A stretch of DNA of 64,000 bases from Minutocellus sp. GHC0000111 (taxonomy: Eukaryota): the NCBI GenBank assembly GCA_977018835.1, contig OZ361256.1, positions 5,952,001-6,016,000 of the forward strand, read 5' to 3'. The position numbers were made by a program, and so were the translations under genes. This document shows positions 49,857 through 59,122 of the stretch, one piece after another. Positions within the stretch are counted from its first letter, which is position 1. Every line of letters begins with the position of its first letter. The notes below the pieces were generated by a model. That model ran no database searches and was not told the DNA's origin. It saw nothing but the letters and a program-made list of their open reading frames with translations.

Positions 49857-51138
49857 ATGAAGAGCTTGCTCTGTGCTTTCACTCTTTTGCTTTCCGCCGA
49901 AGGTAAGTCAAGAATATCGTCGTTTTCGCTTTGCCGCAAAATCTTCATCCTTGCGAACCTTCATCTTGCTTATGCGACCCTTTCCTACCAAATGTTTTCA
50001 TCTCGACAGGATTCATTCCGCAAATACACCGGTCAGCCACCAAAACTACGCTCTTGGCCCAACCGCAAGGAAGCAATGCAAATGAAATCGTAAGTAAAAA
50101 TGTAACGATCGTCGTGTGTCAAGTGCATATTGTAATAATTGTAGCAGCCGACATTTATTTCATCTCCCTCACTAAATGCAATTTCACGCCCCATCGTTTC
50201 CGTCCACATAGAATCCCATGACACCAGGATCAACTTGTGCCCTCGTTACGCCGTACACGGCGAGCGGCAAGATCGACGTCCCAGCTTTGAGGAATTTGCT
50301 CAGATTCCATGTCGAGAATGGAACCGATGGCTTGTGCATCCTCGGCACAACGGGAGAAGCTGCCGTCATGTCCATGGAGGAGCGAGCCACCGTTCTCACT
50401 ACAGCGGTCGAAGAAGTCAAGGGCAAGATTCCAATTCTTGCTGGAACCGGCACGATTGATCCCGTCCACGTAAAAGAGATGACGCTCCAGGCCATCGACA
50501 TTGGCTGTGATGCCTCTCTAGTCGTCACTCCGTATTACGTCAAGCCCCCTCAGCGTGGCCTCGTCAAGCACTTTCTTGATATGGCCGACCTGGGCCTTCC
50601 CGTCGTCATTTACAACATTCCCGGTCGTGCCCAAGTCGATTTTGTGCCCGAATCCATCGCTCTGGTGGCCGATCATCCCAACATCATCGGCGTGAAGGAG
50701 GCAACCGGTGACGTTGGACGGGTTGACCAGCTGAGAGACCTGACGGGAGACAAGCTCCTCCTTCTCAGCGGTGACGACAAGACGGACGCCGAGTTTGTTT
50801 TGCACGGTGGTGATGGGTGCATATCAGTAACAGCCAACGTAGCCCCAAAGCAGAAGCACGAGCTAATGATGGCGGCCCTCCGAGGCAAGAAGGATATTAT
50901 TGCAGAGATCAACTCCAAGCTCGATCCCTTGACAAGCGCCCTCTTCATCGAGTCATCTCCCATGCCCTGCAAATACGCCCTCAAGAAGATGGGCATGATT
51001 GAGCACAGCTTTGCTCGCCCACCTCTCGACGACCTCGACCCCAAGTATTACAACGACGTTGAAACCGCCTTGCGAGGTGCTGGCATTCTCGAAGACATTT
51101 ACACAGAAGATGCCGTCCTTCTTGGAGCGTTTGAGTAG
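49857..51138 (+). CDS. dapA: Plastid-targeted dihydrodipicolinate (HTPA) synthase; exons 49857-49902, 50010-50089, 50212-51138
   Basis: ALVTPY, LGTTGE, VVTPYYVKP, IYNIPGR, GVKEATGD, LSGDD. Signal peptide MKSLLCAFTLLLSAEG-FIP; both introns keep frame. Confidence 0.95.
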
Positions 51139-51314: not shown

Positions 51315-51860
51315 CTATTCAGGCATCACAATTGGGTCGTGCTCATCGGCAAGCACATGGAGGGGGAAAATCTGCCCTCCTCGTTCGATATATTTCGCCC
51401 ATTCAAGCAACTCCCTTCCTCTCAACCCTTCTGGTGGAGGAATTCCTGCCTTTTGTTCGAGTTCCTCAACACTCATCCACGCTGCGCCTTTACTCTCGGC
51501 ATCTGGCATGGACTTGGGAGCTTGGTATGGGTCCTCTGGTTCAGCAAAAAATATGACCCGTTGGCGCCCGCCATACTTATTCATGCTGTTTTCGATCCTC
51601 AATATTCCCATCAACTTCACTTTTATGCCTGCCTCTTCCTCCGTCTCGCGAATAGCAGCTGTGAAATGAGAGTCGGTATTCTCTACGAAGCCCCCTGGTA
51701 ACCACCAGCCTCTCTCTTTGTTCTCTTCCACAGCGAGCCATCTCTTGGATAATGGGTGGCGGCAAACAACCAAACTGAAAGGGTGGGTCGGACAGCCCGT
51801 CGATCGGTTCCACTTGGTCTTGGGCATGATGGATCGTTTGAGATGCTCAACTGTCTTCAC
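51315..51860 (-). CDS. Nudix hydrolase (last exon; 5' exon unresolved)
   Basis: Nudix box WLPGGFVENTDSHFTAAIRETEEEAG, preceded by acceptor TTACAG. Confidence 0.88.
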   Translation of the reverse strand: MKTVEHLKRSIMPKTKWNRSTGCPTHPFSLVVCRHPLSKRWLAVEENKERGWWLPGGFVENTDSHFTAAIRETEEEAGIKVKLMGILRIENSMNKYGGRQRVIFFAEPEDPYQAPKSMPDAESKGAAWMSVEELEQKAGIPPPEGLRGRELLEWAKYIERGGQIFPLHVLADEHDPIVMPE

Positions 51861-52148
51861 CTGTAAATAAATAAAATATTATGTAAAATTTACAATGAGT
51901 TCGCAGAAGTCTGTTCTCGCAAATACAAATATAATAGGAATTCCAGCATCAGTGCGGACACGCCATTGTTTGATCTGCAAACTTGGCTGGCAAAATCCCC
52001 GAGTCTCCCTGATTTCCACCGAGCGACCTCTCCGGCTGCTACGGCGCGAAATCGAAAAGCCTCCCCGGCCCTTCTCTTCTCTTCTTTATTCCCCCCCGTG
52101 CTCCTCCACTCGGGTTCAGCCAACCACTCGCTCCCCAAGCAAAGAAAG

Positions 52149-55100
52149 ATGGCCGCCCAACGAAGGCGCGGCGAATTGCTGGGCAATGGCGGCGGCGGAC
52201 CCCTCCTCGGGGGCGGCGCCGGTGCCGCAGGCGGTCCATCGGGACCAAACGGTAGAGGCTGGACTGTCGCACGCCGAGCACTCCTAACATCGGCACGTCG
52301 AAAGCAATCCATGCGCAATCTCGGAAATGCATCGGGAGATGGTCTCAACTTTGAAGGGATACCGGTTTCCATCCCCGAAGAGGATGCCGAGACAGATCTG
52401 CATCTGGCATTCCGAACGCAGTCCTCTCTGTCGGTGATCAAGGAGTACTTTTACATGGCCATTGAGGAGAATGGCGGAAGAGAGCACATCTGTGGTGAAA
52501 CCGACGCATCGGGCAGGCTCCTTTTGCACTGCATCGGCCTCAACCACACCCTGATTCTCAACGCAGACGGATCAATCAATACCACGACGGCGGGGCTGGT
52601 GGAAGATTTCATACTGAACGAGCTGCTTCCATCGTACCCGTCGGCCATTATCGAGGAGGATGACGACCGCAACCTGCCCTTCATGGAACCAATATCTTCG
52701 TGGGCCAAGGAGCGGCAGGAGGAACGGAGAAAGGCGGCCCAAGAGCGGGAGAGTTCGAGCAACCTGGCTGACATTGTGCAGCAAGCTGCTAAGGCATTCT
52801 TCTCCAAGCGCACGCTGGAGGCTCTAGCACGTGGCAGTGGTGCGACGCAAGAAGAATATGAGAATGGCACCAGTAATATTGACGACGAGCCACAAGCGCC
52901 TGCAACGACCTACGATTTGCCACCTCACGTGGAGTGGTGTTTAGGGATGCTGTCGCACATCATCATGTCCAAGCTTCGACCCCGCCCGGTCCATCGGGGT
53001 GGCCATTTCGATCCCAATTCTTCGGTCGATGGATTGTTCGACGAGAGCGCCACCTCGTTTGGTGACGCGGCTGATCTCATATCTGAGGGGACCGCAAGCA
53101 AATCCGAGGCGGAGTTTGACTCTTTGTTTGTGATCAACGAGGAAGGCATCATTGAGATGGTCAATGAGGCTGCCACCAAAGAGTTTGGGTGGACACAACA
53201 GGAATTTATTGGAAATAACATTAGCATGATTTGCGGTGGTGGACATGGGCCCAAGCACGACCAGTATCTCAAGAACTATCTCAAAACTGGAATCAAGAAG
53301 GTTATGGGCAAGCACGACAGAATATTACATGCCAGGCGCAAAGATGGCTTGGAGTTTGAGATTAGCCTTGGCATTACCGAAACTCCCGTTGGGTCGGGGC
53401 TGCCGAGGCGATTCTGTGGCTTCGTCAAGCACAAAAAGAAGGGCGCGGGACGGCCAAGTACAAAGAGCGAAGATCCGAGGGCACCTGCCGGGGGCTTGGC
53501 TCGGCCACGTCGTACTAGCATCGGATACGACTCGCACTCCGACTTGTCTTCACTTGGTAAGCGATCCAATCGTGGTGTGTATCAGTTCGGAGCTGTTTAT
53601 AACGAGCTCATTGTGGAACATATGTCACAAATAAAGGGGATAATCAAGGAGCTACTCCTCATCGAGGACGAGACCACAAGAGATCGAGTGTTTCAGCTGT
53701 CGATTGTTCAGCAAGTTTTACTGTGTTCAGATTCCTTCGGCGATGGCTCCTGGTTAATCAAACTCTTAACATCAAGCAGCGACGTCGCCCATTACGCGAC
53801 TGATGTTCCACCATCTAGAGAGTCCTCAATGAGAGGAAGTGCCCTCTTCCGTGAAAGAATCGACCAAGAGAACCACGACATTGATCCTGCCGAATGTGCC
53901 GTCTTTTATCTTGAGAGAATATCAAATCTGTCTATAATTGACGATAACAGTAACATGTCTGGGACCGCATCTCGTGCAGGTGCTGCTACCGCAGCGTCAA
54001 TGGCTGAAAAGAGGACTCAACTGTATGACGGTATCAGTAATTTGGAGGGTATTATTCGCAGCCTCTGTGCACTTGAGAATAACCTACTGAAACGAGCAGC
54101 TGTCACAAGAGTTGTCCAACGTGCCTTGGATAGAAAGATTTTTAGCCCCTTTGCCTTGACGGCGGCCCTCTTCGATGGAATATTTCATTTATTGTTCATT
54201 GCAGCCTTTCGTCTCGGCCCGGCGGAGGGTATGTTCCACATCTCAGTCCACGATACGTTGTTTCCGGCACAGCAATATCTCTTTTCGAGCATTGTGCTGA
54301 TAGCCGCGATCGGATATTTTACTCGTCAAAAGATTCACCTAATCAAGACCAAAAAGTTTACCCGCGAAGAAACTATCAAGGCGAAACTATTGAATCCCTG
54401 GAGCTTGCTCACGGAAGTCTTGCCGATCGTGCTAGCATCTTACTGCATCATTGCAATTGATTGGCATCTGCGTTGGAGGTCCAAATTGCACATCGAAGAC
54501 AGTTCGATTCCATTTCATTTACGGTCCGCTGTTGCTTTGACCACTCCACTATTATGGTTTCGGGTGCTTGGGCATCTCAAGATGTTCAATCATCAGCTTG
54601 CGACCTTTGTCCTCTGCTCAGTGGAAATCATGAGGGATATCAAATGGTTCATGCTAGTGCTAATAATCATCATCGCTTCGTTTGCTCAAATGCTCGTGTC
54701 TTTGACGTTTGATGGGTATGACCAAGATAACATAACCGGCTCATCGGCGACCGGATTATTCTCCTTTGACTCATACCTAAAAGCATACACCCTAATGCTC
54801 GGTGATGTCGATATGGAATTCCTTCAGGCGCACTCCGGCATTGTCGTCCTTTTCGTTCTGTATACTTTTGGCGTCACTGTAGTGCTTCTCAATATCCTTA
54901 TTGCGATTGTCTCAGAGTCATATGCCAATGCGGTCTTTTCCTCTACATTGATGCTCGGTAAGGCCAGGATTTTGTTTGTCAGCGATATTATGGCCATGAA
55001 AGGACGCTATTCGATGAAAGGAAGGGCAATTGAAAAGAGTTCAAACAAAAATGCTGCTATTGCGCTCATGTTGTCGGCTGTTTGGATCAAATCAGTCGTC

Positions 55101-55745
55101 AGCTCCGTGCTTATCAAGCTTGACTGTATGAACTTGGCTCCACCGACACTGGTTTTCGGTTTGTCTACAATTGAAATCAAGGCCATCGTAATTTTCTTCG
55201 TCCTTTTTGGCATCATAAGAACACACAAGGCCGCCATGACGTACTCTCTTGCTATTAGCCCCTGTTCACTCCAAGAAAGACGAGCATCTGCAAAACTCCC
55301 AGCATTCAGCATTCTCGCCGAAAGGCTTCAGGCATATATTGGCAGAAACATCGATTCCCTTACAGATAGCGACGGCGCCAAAACTCATCAGTCAGAGATG
55401 TCAGATGCAAATACTGCAGCCCACAGCAAAATTGCCAACGACCGACGTTTGCAGCGAGCATTGGCCGCCACAAGAAAGGATCTCAAGGCCGAGATAAAAA
55501 CATCGGCAGACCAAATGCGACATATTATCCAAGAGGGGGAAGATAAAACGCAGGCTAGCATCGCCATTTGCGAGAATCATCTATCCTCATCCCTAGCCGA
55601 TGTCGCTAGCATGCAAGAGCGCATCGACTCTGCCATTGCTGCATCCGAAGAGAGGATCATTAAGGCATTGTCATCGACATTGGACACGCTGCTCAATGAA
55701 GGCCGACCGATCGATAATGGAAATATGCAACCGGAGCAAGAGTAA
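52149..55745 (+). CDS. TRP-like cation channel fused to a FixL-type PAS domain
   Basis: PAS at ~53110-53430 (VINEEGII..VNEAA..FGW...IGNNI...HDQYL..Y...RRKDG). Channel TM region ~54150-54960 (WFRVLGHL...ATFV...IMRDIKWF...LMLGD...VLLNILIAIVSESY). C-terminal coiled coil. Confidence 0.85.
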   Translation: MAAQRRRGELLGNGGGGPLLGGGAGAAGGPSGPNGRGWTVARRALLTSARRKQSMRNLGNASGDGLNFEGIPVSIPEEDAETDLHLAFRTQSSLSVIKEYFYMAIEENGGREHICGETDASGRLLLHCIGLNHTLILNADGSINTTTAGLVEDFILNELLPSYPSAIIEEDDDRNLPFMEPISSWAKERQEERRKAAQERESSSNLADIVQQAAKAFFSKRTLEALARGSGATQEEYENGTSNIDDEPQAPATTYDLPPHVEWCLGMLSHIIMSKLRPRPVHRGGHFDPNSSVDGLFDESATSFGDAADLISEGTASKSEAEFDSLFVINEEGIIEMVNEAATKEFGWTQQEFIGNNISMICGGGHGPKHDQYLKNYLKTGIKKVMGKHDRILHARRKDGLEFEISLGITETPVGSGLPRRFCGFVKHKKKGAGRPSTKSEDPRAPAGGLARPRRTSIGYDSHSDLSSLGKRSNRGVYQFGAVYNELIVEHMSQIKGIIKELLLIEDETTRDRVFQLSIVQQVLLCSDSFGDGSWLIKLLTSSSDVAHYATDVPPSRESSMRGSALFRERIDQENHDIDPAECAVFYLERISNLSIIDDNSNMSGTASRAGAATAASMAEKRTQLYDGISNLEGIIRSLCALENNLLKRAAVTRVVQRALDRKIFSPFALTAALFDGIFHLLFIAAFRLGPAEGMFHISVHDTLFPAQQYLFSSIVLIAAIGYFTRQKIHLIKTKKFTREETIKAKLLNPWSLLTEVLPIVLASYCIIAIDWHLRWRSKLHIEDSSIPFHLRSAVALTTPLLWFRVLGHLKMFNHQLATFVLCSVEIMRDIKWFMLVLIIIIASFAQMLVSLTFDGYDQDNITGSSATGLFSFDSYLKAYTLMLGDVDMEFLQAHSGIVVLFVLYTFGVTVVLLNILIAIVSESYANAVFSSTLMLGKARILFVSDIMAMKGRYSMKGRAIEKSSNKNAAIALMLSAVWIKSVVSSVLIKLDCMNLAPPTLVFGLSTIEIKAIVIFFVLFGIIRTHKAAMTYSLAISPCSLQERRASAKLPAFSILAERLQAYIGRNIDSLTDSDGAKTHQSEMSDANTAAHSKIANDRRLQRALAATRKDLKAEIKTSADQMRHIIQEGEDKTQASIAICENHLSSSLADVASMQERIDSAIAASEERIIKALSSTLDTLLNEGRPIDNGNMQPEQE

Positions 55746-55979
55746 TTTACCAGCAAGTCGTACGAAAGGGGCGTTTGTCTGTTAGGAAATTAGAATGAAT
55801 ATGAATACTTTAAATGTTATATCACTGCCGCCAAAATTGTTCCTTGCACGCGCATCTATCTCTTCCCTCAACTATGACCGTCCGAAATGTGTAATCTGTT
55901 TCCACATCCTCCGCAAGAGTAGAGGGGTCAAGCTGAGCTGTAGCTTGCTTTAGACTGCCTTTTCCACTGCTGGTGCAAT

Positions 55980-57427
55980 TTATTGGAAAACAATCTCCTT
56001 GTCTGTTTGCCGGGATCGAGATCCACCACCGCTGCCACCATCTCCGCCATCATTCTTGAACAGAGAGCCAATGGCGGTAGCGCCGGCAAGAACGCCGGCG
56101 GCAACACCGGCACCGACCAAGGCATCGCTCGACGGGGACATCTCGGAAAGACTTCCGAGCATGGTGTCCTCATCGTACAGGTAGGCAAGGAGGTTGTCCG
56201 TCACAACGGAGTTGCCGCCCTCTGCCTTTTTGAGACTCTGTAGGTTTGAAGAGCGATGAAGAATTGGATGGGAAATGATTAGTTTGTGAAAAAAACCAAA
56301 AATACCGCGTCTGCATGCATTTGCAGCACATGTTAAAAATTATGCCAATAGCGTGATATTTCATCCTCTTTCTTTCATTCCAACATACTTACCTGGAAGG
56401 TGATTGGCTTGAAGTAGTCCTCCACCCGGTTCTTGCCGTCGGGATTGCCGCGGTTGATGACGATGCCACCGAGAAAAATGACCTCGGTAATGCCCTGCCA
56501 GAATCCTGGCTTCTTGATGGCACCATCGACCTCCCTGAGGAGGAGATCGCTGACCATGTCGTACATCTTGTTGCTGACCATGGCAATGAGGGCGTTCTGG
56601 TCCGGTCCGTCCAGACCCTCGCGCTCCATTCGGGCGCGGAGGTCACGGATGATGAAATCCTCCTGCACATCGGGCTGGGTGGTCTCGTAGGGGAATCCCT
56701 CGAGCTGGGTACCGGCCAGGCCGGTTACCATCTGCTTCTCCCGCTCGGCCTTGATGGCCTTGTAAGCGCCGAGGGCGGCACCGCAGGCACCACTGGGCTT
56801 GTCCATTCCCACTCTCTCAACTTTCCCAACTACACCGTCGGCGGAAATGCCAACATGAGGTCCGTACACGATGACAATGTGTCCGTCCTTGGGACTGTGC
56901 GAAAAGAAGGCCCCGAAGCCCGAGGGACCGACGAAGGGAACACCGCCGAGACCACCGAGGTTGAACACACCACCGCTGTTGGCCTTGGTCAGACCGTCCT
57001 GCAGACCGGCGAAGAGGGAGAGGTCGGTGTCGTTGATCTCGTCACTGCAAAGCGAGGAGGCCAACAGGGTGTTGTCCGGCTGGTATCCGCGCGCGCGGAG
57101 GGTGCGGATGACGCGGTCGGCCACCTTGGAATTGGGCAGGGAGGCCGGGAAGTACTGGCGGCAGGACCGCTCAAATGCCGAGTAGTCCGTGGCAGCCGAT
57201 GCAGCCTGGGGATTGACGGCCAGCGAGGCTGGAAGGCCAGCAGCTACGAGCGAGGCGGTGACGGCCGACAGGGGAGCCTTGATGCGTGCATCGCGGGCCG
57301 AGATGGAGGCAGCACTGGCACTGCTCTCGGCATTGAGGCTCGTCGCTACCGAACGAGGAGCCGAGGTGGAGCCAGGAGAAAAGGCCGTGGCAGCCACGGG
57401 CAAGAACATCAACGTGGAGAACTTCAT
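55980..57427 (-). CDS. LCIB-family theta carbonic anhydrase, predicted thylakoid-lumen targeted (intron 56238-56392)
   Basis: LCSDE, LGGLGGVPF.G..GFGA..SH, YGPHVGI, ACGA (Cys/His/Cys ligands), LGGIVIN. Presequence MKFSTLMFLPVAATA-FSP plus a second hydrophobic segment ending AASA. Confidence 0.9.
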
Positions 57428-57730: not shown

Positions 57731-59122
57731 ATGAGCAGCCAGCAAGCACCACCCACAGTTATAAAGGCTGACTCTCTCCAATCGGGGAGAATTCCGTCCC
57801 CGTCGCCGTCCATGGTATCCGATGGCTCGGCGCAGGAGGGCTTCGAGGTGAAATTCAGCGCATCCGGTGATGCGTCCTCTGTTGGCGGCGGCGGCGTTGG
57901 CGGCCCCACCCCCCTCCTCCAGCGGATCGACCGATCGGCCTCGACCAAGGGCATGTCGGCGGCCTTTTCGCTCGACTACGACAAGCCACCCAATCAGGCC
58001 CTTGTGTTTGTCAAGCCCCACGCGCACAACGCCGCCGTTTGTGAGCTGGTGGAAAAATCACTCCACGAGAACATTGCTGGTGGATGTCAAATTATCTTTA
58101 GCTGCGTTGTCAGCGGTACGAGGATTGGCAGGAAGAGACTGATCGATCGACACTACCAGTCCATTGCGCGATATGCCACGGAACTCGATGCTGACAAGCT
58201 GGCCTTTGACGTGAGCAAGTTTGACAATAAGTTCAAGGGTGAAAAGTGGTCCAAGGTACTCACGGACAAGCGTGCCTGCAACGCCGTCCAAGCCTTGTCC
58301 AAGTTGGGATGTGATCCTGACCAACTGGAGGTAGCGTGGAGACGTGCCGAGGCGGCCGATCGCACCGCCAAGCTTGGGCCCGGTCTGTACATTGGTCTGG
58401 TGGAAAGTCCGACCGATGATCAAACGTCCATGTATGTCGTCAATGGTTTTTACATGGTCATGAGGGGCAAGTACATCGGCGAGGACAAGTCCATCCGTTG
58501 CTACGTCGTGCAGTTCGACGAGCGGAGCTGTCCCTGGAAAGATTTCCGATCAAAGGTCATTGGCGCTACTGATCCGACCAAGGCGGCCGAGGGCAGCTTA
58601 CGCCATACCATTTTGAAGAGGTGAGAATACCATTTTGAAGAATTGAGGGTCGATATGGAGTCTCTCAAAATTTGGTGCCATGATATTTTTATTACCTTTT
58701 GTTATTTATCTCAGTACGGCACGTCATGCTCTCTGCGTTGTTTATTTTGCAGGTACAAGGAGCTCGGTTTGGATTTAGAGCCAAGCACGGGCAACAACGC
58801 TGTGCATGCCTCGGCATCGCCACTGGAAGGGTTGGCGGAACGGTGCAATTGGCTCAGCACGACACCTTCGGAGGATTCCTTTGGCAAAGCCCTTTTGGCG
58901 AGGGGCATACTGGAATCGACCATACTGAAGTGGATGGATGATCCTGATATCACCTTTCCGCCATCGACCGCCGACGGCAGCCGCAAGAAGGGCAGTCTAT
59001 TTGACGATGTGGAGGACATGGATTCTGCTGCCTGCATGCAGCGGTTGCTATCGATTTATGATGACGAACTGTTCTCAAAGAATGGGGATGTTGTTTGTGC
59101 ACCGTGCTGCGTGGTGTCGTAA
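57731..59122 (+). CDS. Nucleoside-diphosphate-kinase-like protein with a C-terminal CaaX (intron 58621-58752)
   Basis: ALVFVKPHA, IDRHY, NGFY, IGATDP..A..GSLR, NAVHASASP.EG..E; ends CAPCCVVS. Confidence 0.85.

What the first reader, a model, noticed from the sequence alone, without database searches (positions are those of the whole stretch)
52149..55745. FixL-type heme-PAS domain fused to a TRP-like channel: candidate gas-gated ion channel
Seen: the PAS follows the rhizobial FixL heme-PAS pattern, retaining the proximal His (HDQYL..Y, codon 53256-53258) and an Arg at the distal-Arg position (VMGKHDR). It lies in one uninterrupted ORF with a TRP-like pore region (LLNILIAIVSESY). Established: FixL PAS senses O2; PAS-containing channels are mainly KCNH-type, with non-heme PAS. 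Inference: O2/NO/CO or redox state could be coupled directly to Ca2+/cation flux.
Basis: partly seen in the sequence, partly recalled or inferred. Interest (0 to 1): 0.8.

Follow-up and report, generated by a model that had tools for sequence, protein, structure and literature searches.

The report
Diatom TRP channel carrying FixL-type sensor
Several centric diatoms encode a TRP-type ion channel with a bacterial-style oxygen-sensor domain built into it; the domain likely binds heme and would let oxygen, nitric oxide or carbon monoxide tune ion flow directly, which is still untested.

Summary
Window 52149-55745 is one 1198-aa ORF. Its PAS domain (aa 322-428) matches FixL best, by sequence and by fold. 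FixL's proximal His and distal Arg are kept in 33 of 33 channel-PAS rows. Its membrane part folds like TRP channels: the top 33 structural matches are all TRPs. The fusion occurs in 24 sequence clusters, with named members from Odontella, Pseudictyota, Thalassiosira and Skeletonema, and includes full-length transcript-derived proteins, so it is not an assembly or gene-merge artefact. New here: the PAS is an insert in a wider PAS-less diatom TRP family. It sits in two different cytosolic loops in two clades, and its nearest kin are diatom-type multi-PAS proteins rather than rhizobial FixL. Two independent captures fit best but are not proven (AU p 0.05 for the channel tree, 0.28 for the PAS tree). 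Heme binding is likely. Gating by gas is inferred only: the PAS hangs on low-confidence linkers, and FixL's flanking coupling helices are degenerate in this lineage. I found no description of this architecture in ten literature searches. Verdict: a real, conserved, apparently undescribed channel variant and a strong candidate gas- or heme-regulated cation channel.

The parts
52149..55745 (+). Whole intronless ORF, 1198 aa: TRP-type channel subunit with an inserted FixL-type PAS domain
   Evidence: aligns end to end with transcript-derived relatives
52398..52835 (+). N-terminal helical scaffold, aa 84-229, shared with PAS-less paralogs; possibly degenerate ankyrin-like repeats
   Evidence: helices in the AF2 model; no Pfam hit below E 0.09; family profile hits a 4-ankyrin protein weakly, E 5e-4
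52917..52970 (+). Conserved LPPxVEW helix, aa 257-274; lies before the PAS in clade A (this gene) and after it in clade B
53112..53432 (+). FixL-type PAS domain, aa 322-428, predicted heme-binding
   Evidence: Foldseek rmsd 2.1 A over 107 columns to 1d06
53256..53258 (+). His370, aligned with FixL His194, the heme-ligating His
   Evidence: His in 33 of 33 channel-PAS rows
53319..53321 (+). Arg391, aligned with FixL Arg214, the distal Arg; follows a one-residue FG-loop insertion in clade A
   Evidence: Arg in 33 of 33 rows
53577..54140 (+). Second cytosolic helical block up to pre-S1, aa 477-664, shared with PAS-less paralogs
54147..54923 (+). S1-S6 channel module, aa 667-925
   Evidence: AF2 pLDDT 79, pTM 0.72; TRP structures are the top fold matches
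54765..54806 (+). Pore helix and L-G-D filter position, aa 873-886
   Evidence: G885 nearly invariant in the 39-row alignment
54924..55013 (+). Post-S6 helix in the TRP-helix position, with conserved G-x-A-R
55023..55253 (+). Two extra hydrophobic helices after S6 (aa 959-993 and 1007-1035), likely S7/S8 as in fungal TRPY1
   Evidence: hydropathy; AF2; TRPY1 6whg aligns over model range 2-427; precomputed PF23317 hit (its YVC1 C-terminal name is recalled)
55422..55697 (+). Long C-terminal helix, aa 1092-1183, likely an assembly coiled coil
   Evidence: function inferred

Best explanation
The gene encodes a TRP-fold channel subunit with a FixL-type PAS domain inserted in its cytosolic N-terminal scaffold; the PAS likely binds heme through His370, and the heme's ligand state (O2, NO or CO bound, or Fe oxidised) would likely shift the channel's opening. 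Shown: one ORF, both folds, the conserved heme His and distal Arg, purifying selection on the PAS in clade B, and PAS-less paralogs. Inferred from FixL biochemistry (recalled): a five-coordinate heme binds a diatomic gas, Arg391 swings into the distal pocket and the FG loop moves. Inferred from TRP architecture: four subunits form a non-selective cation pore, and a change in PAS docking or PAS-PAS pairing is passed through the helical scaffold to pre-S1, the post-S6 helix and the S6 gate. The PAS is most likely a modulator added to a channel that has its own gating stimulus, since close paralogs lack it.
For: FixL is the top sequence and fold match of the PAS. His370 and Arg391 are present in 33 of 33 channel-PAS rows, and the FixL pocket positions V209, L230 and V232 align with V385, L407 and I409. 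[quoted passage not shown] PAS dN/dS is 0.03-0.12 in the 6 measurable clade B pairs, similar to the adjacent channel scaffold at 0.04-0.15. VIA-align rows 1-33 are all TRP channels (Z 15.1-9.0; first non-TRP 8.3; Kv1.2 7.9). The fusion is kept across 24 clusters and in complete transcripts. The domain is retained at two different sites, which fits repeated selection for a sensor input.
Against: There are no heme spectra and no currents. In the full-length model the PAS is flanked by segments under pLDDT 50 (aa 220-323 and 430-479; pTM 0.47). The linkers are poorly conserved and the insertion site differs between clades, so no fixed coupling path is evident. In the window's lineage the helix before the PAS core and the D-x-T start of the helix after it, both kept in clade B, are degenerate. 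Pocket differences from FixL: Lys388 for Ile212 (Lys in 30 of 33 rows), Asn376 for Arg200 (Arg in 18 of 33) and a one-residue FG-loop insertion in clade A. The PAS rows were found by similarity to the query and include near-copies, which inflates conservation counts. dN/dS was measured for clade B only.
Confidence: 0.55

Rival explanations
1. The PAS binds heme, but the signal is heme availability or redox state (iron or tetrapyrrole status), not a gas; the channel is heme-modulated in the way reported for BK, KATP and ERG3 channels.
For: Heme-dependent gating of several ion channels is cited in PMC8549057 (passages). The pocket departs from FixL at positions 376 and 388. A Cys precedes the F-helix in all clade A rows and in part of clade B.
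Against: The distal Arg, tied to O2 stabilisation in FixL (recalled), is present in 33 of 33 channel rows but in only 369 of 477 repeats of the giant multi-PAS proteins. An enclosed FixL-type pocket suggests a fixed cofactor rather than an exchangeable one (inference).
Confidence: 0.17
2. The PAS binds heme and gas but does not gate the pore; it serves as a tethered interaction, trafficking or assembly module, for example pairing with the cell's other multi-PAS proteins or cyclases.
For: Long low-confidence linkers; two different insertion sites; degenerate flanking helices in this lineage; many soluble multi-PAS proteins of the same clade exist as possible partners.
Against: Retention of the full ligand-sensing residue set and purifying selection fit a sensing role. 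Indirect regulation would still link the ligand to channel output.
Confidence: 0.18
3. The PAS has lost heme binding and senses another small molecule or none; the His and Arg are kept for structural reasons.
For: 40% of the FixL cluster lacks the His, so ligand changes occur in this family (PMC10468136). Lys replaces a pocket Ile.
Against: His is present in 42 of 42 channel repeats, 120 of 120 close multi-PAS repeats and 477 of 477 repeats of the giant multi-PAS proteins, whose matches to the query are only about 30-35% identical.
Confidence: 0.08
4. The fusion is an artefact: two neighbouring genes read as one, or a misassembly.
For: GC falls from 0.54 (52001-54000) to 0.46 (54001-56000). 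No reads could be laid on the locus.
Against: The PAS lies inside the channel's own scaffold, with conserved blocks on both sides. The same layout occurs in independent assemblies and in MMETSP/EukProt transcript-derived proteins of 1177-1259 aa.
Confidence: 0.02

Closest known systems
FixL / DosP heme-PAS sensors (PAS cluster 3 of PMC10468136)
   Same: PAS fold (rmsd 2.1 A to 1d06), proximal His, distal Arg and hydrophobic pocket positions.
   Different: The output is an ion channel, not a kinase or phosphodiesterase. Lys replaces the FG-loop Ile, Asn replaces the proximal Arg in this gene, clade A has a one-residue insertion, and the flanking coupling helices are degenerate.
Diatom TRP channels (dTRP-1 to dTRP-5 of PMC11085791)
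   Same: S1-S6 TRP fold in diatoms; PAS-less relatives share the scaffold and pore.
   Different: The paper's main text has 0 hits for heme and 1 word-start hit for 'pas', not among the passages shown, and its TRP section names no sensor domain. The three T. oceanica entries in the last alignment part of its supplement start differently from the T. oceanica PAS-TRP P0234. The supplement sequences were cut, so I could not assign a dTRP clade.
Fungal TRPY1/YVC1
   Same: Extra helices after S6; TRPY1 aligns over the whole membrane model (Z 10.9, 305 residues); PF23317 hit.
   Different: Only 13-16% identity; TRPY1 has no PAS (recalled).
KCNH (EAG/ERG) channels with an N-terminal PAS; heme binding reported for ERG3
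   Same: A PAS domain on a tetrameric cation channel.
   Different: KCNH PAS belongs to the LOV-like cluster 11, its His lies elsewhere and heme binding is called inconclusive. KCNH are voltage-gated K+ channels, not TRPs.
Two-protein gas sensing through cyclases and channels (GCY-35; GUCY1B2 with TRPC2)
   Same: A heme gas sensor leads to cation influx (PMC12755159, passages).
   Different: There the sensor and channel are separate proteins linked by a messenger; here they are one polypeptide.

Membership tests
FixL-type heme-PAS (cluster 3) | PAS fold closest to FixL/DosP | tested here: met
FixL-type heme-PAS (cluster 3) | His on the F-alpha helix as heme ligand position | tested here: met
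   His370 aligns with FixL His194; 33 of 33 rows
FixL-type heme-PAS (cluster 3) | Distal Arg and hydrophobic pocket residues | tested here: met
   R391=R214, V385=V209, L407=L230, I409=V232; roles recalled
FixL-type heme-PAS (cluster 3) | Secondary pocket residues (proximal Arg, FG-loop Ile) | tested here: inconclusive
   N376 for R200 (Arg in 18 of 33 rows); K388 for I212; PMC10468136 treats residues other than the His as secondary
FixL-type heme-PAS (cluster 3) | Binds heme and O2/NO/CO | not testable with these tools
   needs spectroscopy
FixL proper | Histidine kinase output domain | tested here: not met
   no HisKA or HATPase hit; the protein is not a FixL, only its PAS is of that type
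TRP channel superfamily | S1-S6 with pore helix and filter between S5 and S6 | tested here: met
   rows 1-33 and all 38 rows shown are TRP channels
TRP channel superfamily | S6 signature of the LLN-LIA type | tested here: met
   nearly invariant columns; aligned to TRPV2/3
TRP channel superfamily | TRP box / TRP helix after S6 | tested here: inconclusive
   a helix with conserved G-x-A-R is in this position; the canonical Trp-containing box (recalled) is absent
TRP channel superfamily | N-terminal ankyrin repeats (TRPV/A/C/N) | tested here: inconclusive
   helical scaffold; weak profile hit E 5e-4; no Pfam ankyrin hit
TRP channel superfamily | Tetramer conducting cations | not testable with these tools
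   needs electrophysiology; no tetramer model was run
KCNH channels | K+ filter GFG/GYG, charged S4, cyclic-nucleotide-binding-homology domain (recalled) | tested here: not met
   filter position reads LGD, S4 lacks periodic Arg, no such Pfam hit

The most novel reading that the evidence does not exclude
A one-component gas receptor channel: a TRP channel gated directly by O2, NO or CO through its own heme-PAS domain, built twice independently in centric diatoms by capturing a PAS repeat from the cell's multi-PAS proteins into two different cytosolic loops. It would give diatoms a direct route from dissolved gas to a Ca2+ or voltage signal.
Probability: 0.35. Interest if true: 0.92.

Novelty: new variant of a known kind. 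Interest (0 to 1): 0.75.

Why it matters
The heme gas receptors named in the review passages I read drive kinases, cyclases or phosphodiesterases, and gas effects on channels there run through separate proteins. A channel with its own FixL-type sensor would be a new output for this sensor class. It would also be a candidate receptor for O2 or NO in bloom-forming diatoms, whose NO and Ca2+ stress signalling has no identified receptor as far as I recall. The family supplies natural controls: two insertion sites and close PAS-less paralogs. It could also serve as a genetically encoded gas-to-current transducer.

Tried and rejected
Complex prediction with the PAS as partner against the two scaffold pieces plus heme gave no verdict (score 0.00); it is not used for or against. 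AU tests did not reject a single origin: PAS tree, A+B as one clade p 0.28; channel tree, A+B+Ditylum p 0.052 and A+C p 0.105. The careful mixture-model tree did not finish; one search shows the quick tree. No whole genome was held and no sequencing runs were obtained, so expression in this strain and paralog counts are open. The protein atlas did not complete, so the N-terminal scaffold's fold is unresolved. Motif searches in the PMC11085791 supplement found nothing, but its alignments are gapped and cut, so this is uninformative. The ERG3 heme paper (PMC7504924) and a DOI I recalled for Chlamydomonas FixL-like proteins were not held; I saw neither. The search of earlier findings returned nothing twice. 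Direct recent transfer from rhizobial FixL was rejected: diatom-type multi-PAS repeats are closer. Gene-neighbourhood linkage was rejected on one comparison: the neighbours in L003 do not resemble the window's DHDPS, NUDIX and LCIB genes. dN/dS was saturated for the PAS in 39 of 45 locus pairs.
Full report
Observation. Window 52149-55745 (+) is one uninterrupted ORF of 1198 aa. Pfam finds PAS_9 at aa 324-406 and Ion_trans at aa 793-928, both above their cut-offs. Against PDB sequences the best hits are seven FixL entries (E 9e-14 to 3e-11), then DosP, then TRPV2/TRPV3 over aa 795-936. His370 is codon 53256-53258 and Arg391 is codon 53319-53321. The neighbours encode a DHDPS, a NUDIX hydrolase and an LCIB-type carbonic anhydrase. 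The named relatives indicate a centric diatom.

The fusion is real and conserved. One search returned 32 hits: 16 cover both the PAS and the channel scaffold, and 16 are PAS-only matches to other signalling proteins. With there are 24 clusters at 90% identity that carry both parts: 10 of clade A (P0002-P0011) and 14 of clade B (P0012-P0017, P0074, P0215, P0232-P0234, P0238-P0240). Named members are Pseudictyota dubia and Odontella aurita (A), and Thalassiosira sp. AJA248-18, T. exigua, T. profunda (two), T. oceanica and Skeletonema marinoi, dohrnii and menzelii (B). Several are MMETSP or EukProt transcript-derived proteins of 1177-1259 aa, some labelled complete. Reads for this strain could not be obtained.

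The channel part. An AF2 model of aa 618-1044 (39-row alignment; pLDDT 79, pTM 0.72) shows S1-S6, a pore helix, a long post-S6 helix and two more hydrophobic helices (hydropathy). All 38 Foldseek rows shown are TRP channels, with modest scores (best E 2e-4, TM about 0.47). In VIA-align against 48,161 chains, rows 1-33 are TRP channels (Z 15.1 to 9.0, rmsd 4-7 A); the first non-TRP row has Z 8.3 and Kv1.2 has 7.9. The tool warns that Z under about 13 can be unspecific for helical bundles; the top nine rows exceed 13. The filter position reads L-G-D, which I recall as the polycystin-2 filter; PAS-less relatives hit PKD_channel weakly. S4 lacks periodic arginines. TRPY1 aligns across the whole model including the extra helices.

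The sensor part. In the full-length model (pLDDT 60.5, pTM 0.47) the PAS superposes on FixL 1d06 at rmsd 2.1 A over 107 columns. I aligned 33 channel-PAS rows (12 clade A proteins, 11 clade B proteins, 10 clade B loci; near-copies included) with an annotated Rhizobium FixL (L001). His370 matches His194 in 33 of 33 rows and Arg391 matches Arg214 in 33 of 33. V385, L407 and I409 match V209, L230 and V232. Departures: N376 for R200 (Arg in 18 of 33), K388 for I212 (Lys in 30 of 33) and a one-residue insertion before the Arg in clade A. Among all PAS repeats collected, His/Arg counts were 42/42 of 42 in channels, 120/118 of 120 in close multi-PAS repeats, 477/369 of 477 in giant proteins and 254/206 of 266 in the rest. 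These were found by similarity to the query, which biases the counts upward. [quoted passage not shown] In the 6 of 45 clade B locus pairs with unsaturated synonymous sites, PAS dN/dS was 0.03-0.12, against 0.04-0.15 for the adjacent scaffold.

An insert at two sites. The channel scaffold has a fixed order of blocks: ELLPxYP, LPPxVEW, ELLL, then the membrane part. In clade A the PAS lies after LPPxVEW; in clade B it lies before it. No two-PAS channel was found among the proteins or the 20 loci. Close paralogs with both loops free of PAS exist (clade C: P0108, P0183, P0236, P0237, P0242-P0244; about 60% identical to clade B in the membrane part), as do more distant ones (P0127, P0216-P0229, P0231). 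The channel tree (18 rows, LG+G4) places PAS-less clade C with clade B (93/91) and apart from A; forcing A+B+Ditylum together gives AU p 0.052. An earlier quick tree left this node open. In the PAS tree (82 rows, 106 columns) clade B groups with three multi-PAS repeats (97/95) and A stands apart, but AU does not reject A+B (p 0.28). For each of 11 channel PAS domains tested, 3 to 23 of 863 non-channel repeats were more similar than the best PAS of the other clade. Two captures from the multi-PAS pool are the simplest reading; one capture followed by relocation, or a two-PAS ancestor with reciprocal losses, is not excluded. The donor pool includes a 7-8-PAS class III cyclase with a Conticribra weissflogii member.

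Mechanism. Shown: architecture, folds, residue conservation, selection in clade B. Likely (about 0.85): His370-ligated heme. Inferred: gas binding moves Arg391 and the FG loop as in FixL (recalled), and this changes PAS docking or PAS-PAS pairing on the cytosolic scaffold, which connects to pre-S1, the post-S6 helix and the S6 gate. Against tight coupling: the flanks are low-confidence (aa 220-323, 430-479) and poorly conserved, the site differs between clades, and the helices that flank the PAS in clade B are degenerate in the window's lineage. Because close paralogs lack the PAS, it is probably a modulator on a channel with its own stimulus. I put gas- or heme-ligand modulation of gating at 0.55, heme or redox sensing at 0.17, a non-gating tether at 0.18, no heme at 0.08 and artefact at 0.02.

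What is in print. Ten full-text searches found no description of a PAS- or heme-bearing TRP channel: searches returned no papers, and searches returned listings of which I saw titles and abstract starts. The library lacks most subscription papers. I read passages of PMC11085791 (diatom Ca2+ channels; its TRP section lists five clades and no sensor domain) and searched its supplement, whose alignments were cut, so it may hold family members I could not see. I read passages of PMC10468136, PMC8549057 and PMC12755159. I saw the ERG3 heme paper only as a citation and through PMC10468136, which calls that evidence inconclusive. Heme-binding FixL-like PAS proteins in Chlamydomonas are recalled, not read. 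Databases label family members only as hypothetical or PAS domain-containing proteins.

Verdict. The finding is a real, conserved and apparently undescribed combination of two well-known modules, so I rate it a new variant of a known kind, interest 0.75. If direct gas gating is shown, and more so if it arose twice, it would be a new class of one-component gas receptor (probability 0.35, interest 0.92).

Noticed in passing
P0247 and P0002: A PAS-less clade C member (P0247) lists the same longest-contig length, 2,909,337, as P0002, which differs from the window's protein by one residue. The same genome likely encodes a PAS-bearing and a PAS-less paralog, so mixed tetramers are possible. The paralog is not inside the window.
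   Followed up: partly
P0068, P0069, P0095, P0110-P0212; L007, L008, L011: A large family of diatom-type proteins with 2-10 FixL-type PAS repeats, His kept in 120 of 120 close repeats, including a 7-8-PAS class III nucleotide cyclase (Conticribra weissflogii member). This points to a wider predicted heme-PAS signalling toolkit in diatoms.
   Followed up: partly
P0071-P0126: Giant proteins of about 2,300-3,600 aa with up to 13 tandem PAS repeats (P0071 has a TmcB TPR hit); the His is kept in 477 of 477 repeats from proteins over 2,000 aa. Source organisms unnamed.
   Followed up: partly
window 56375-57427 (-): LCIB/C-type carbonic anhydrase (PF18599, E 9e-49) about 630 bases downstream, convergent with the channel gene; not seen among the ORFs beside the clade B gene in L003.
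   Followed up: partly
window 50218-51138 (+) and 51315-51827 (-): Dihydrodipicolinate synthase and a NUDIX hydrolase upstream; ordinary genes.
   Followed up: yes
window 57731-59122 (+): Two ORFs, probably one intron-split gene; the first has no Pfam hit. It looks like a divergent nucleoside-diphosphate-kinase-like protein (recalled resemblance, untested).
   Followed up: no
P0236, P0237, P0108 (aa about 100-200): In PAS-less clade C, the loop that holds the PAS in clade B is an acidic low-complexity stretch, suggesting this loop tolerates insertions.
   Followed up: partly
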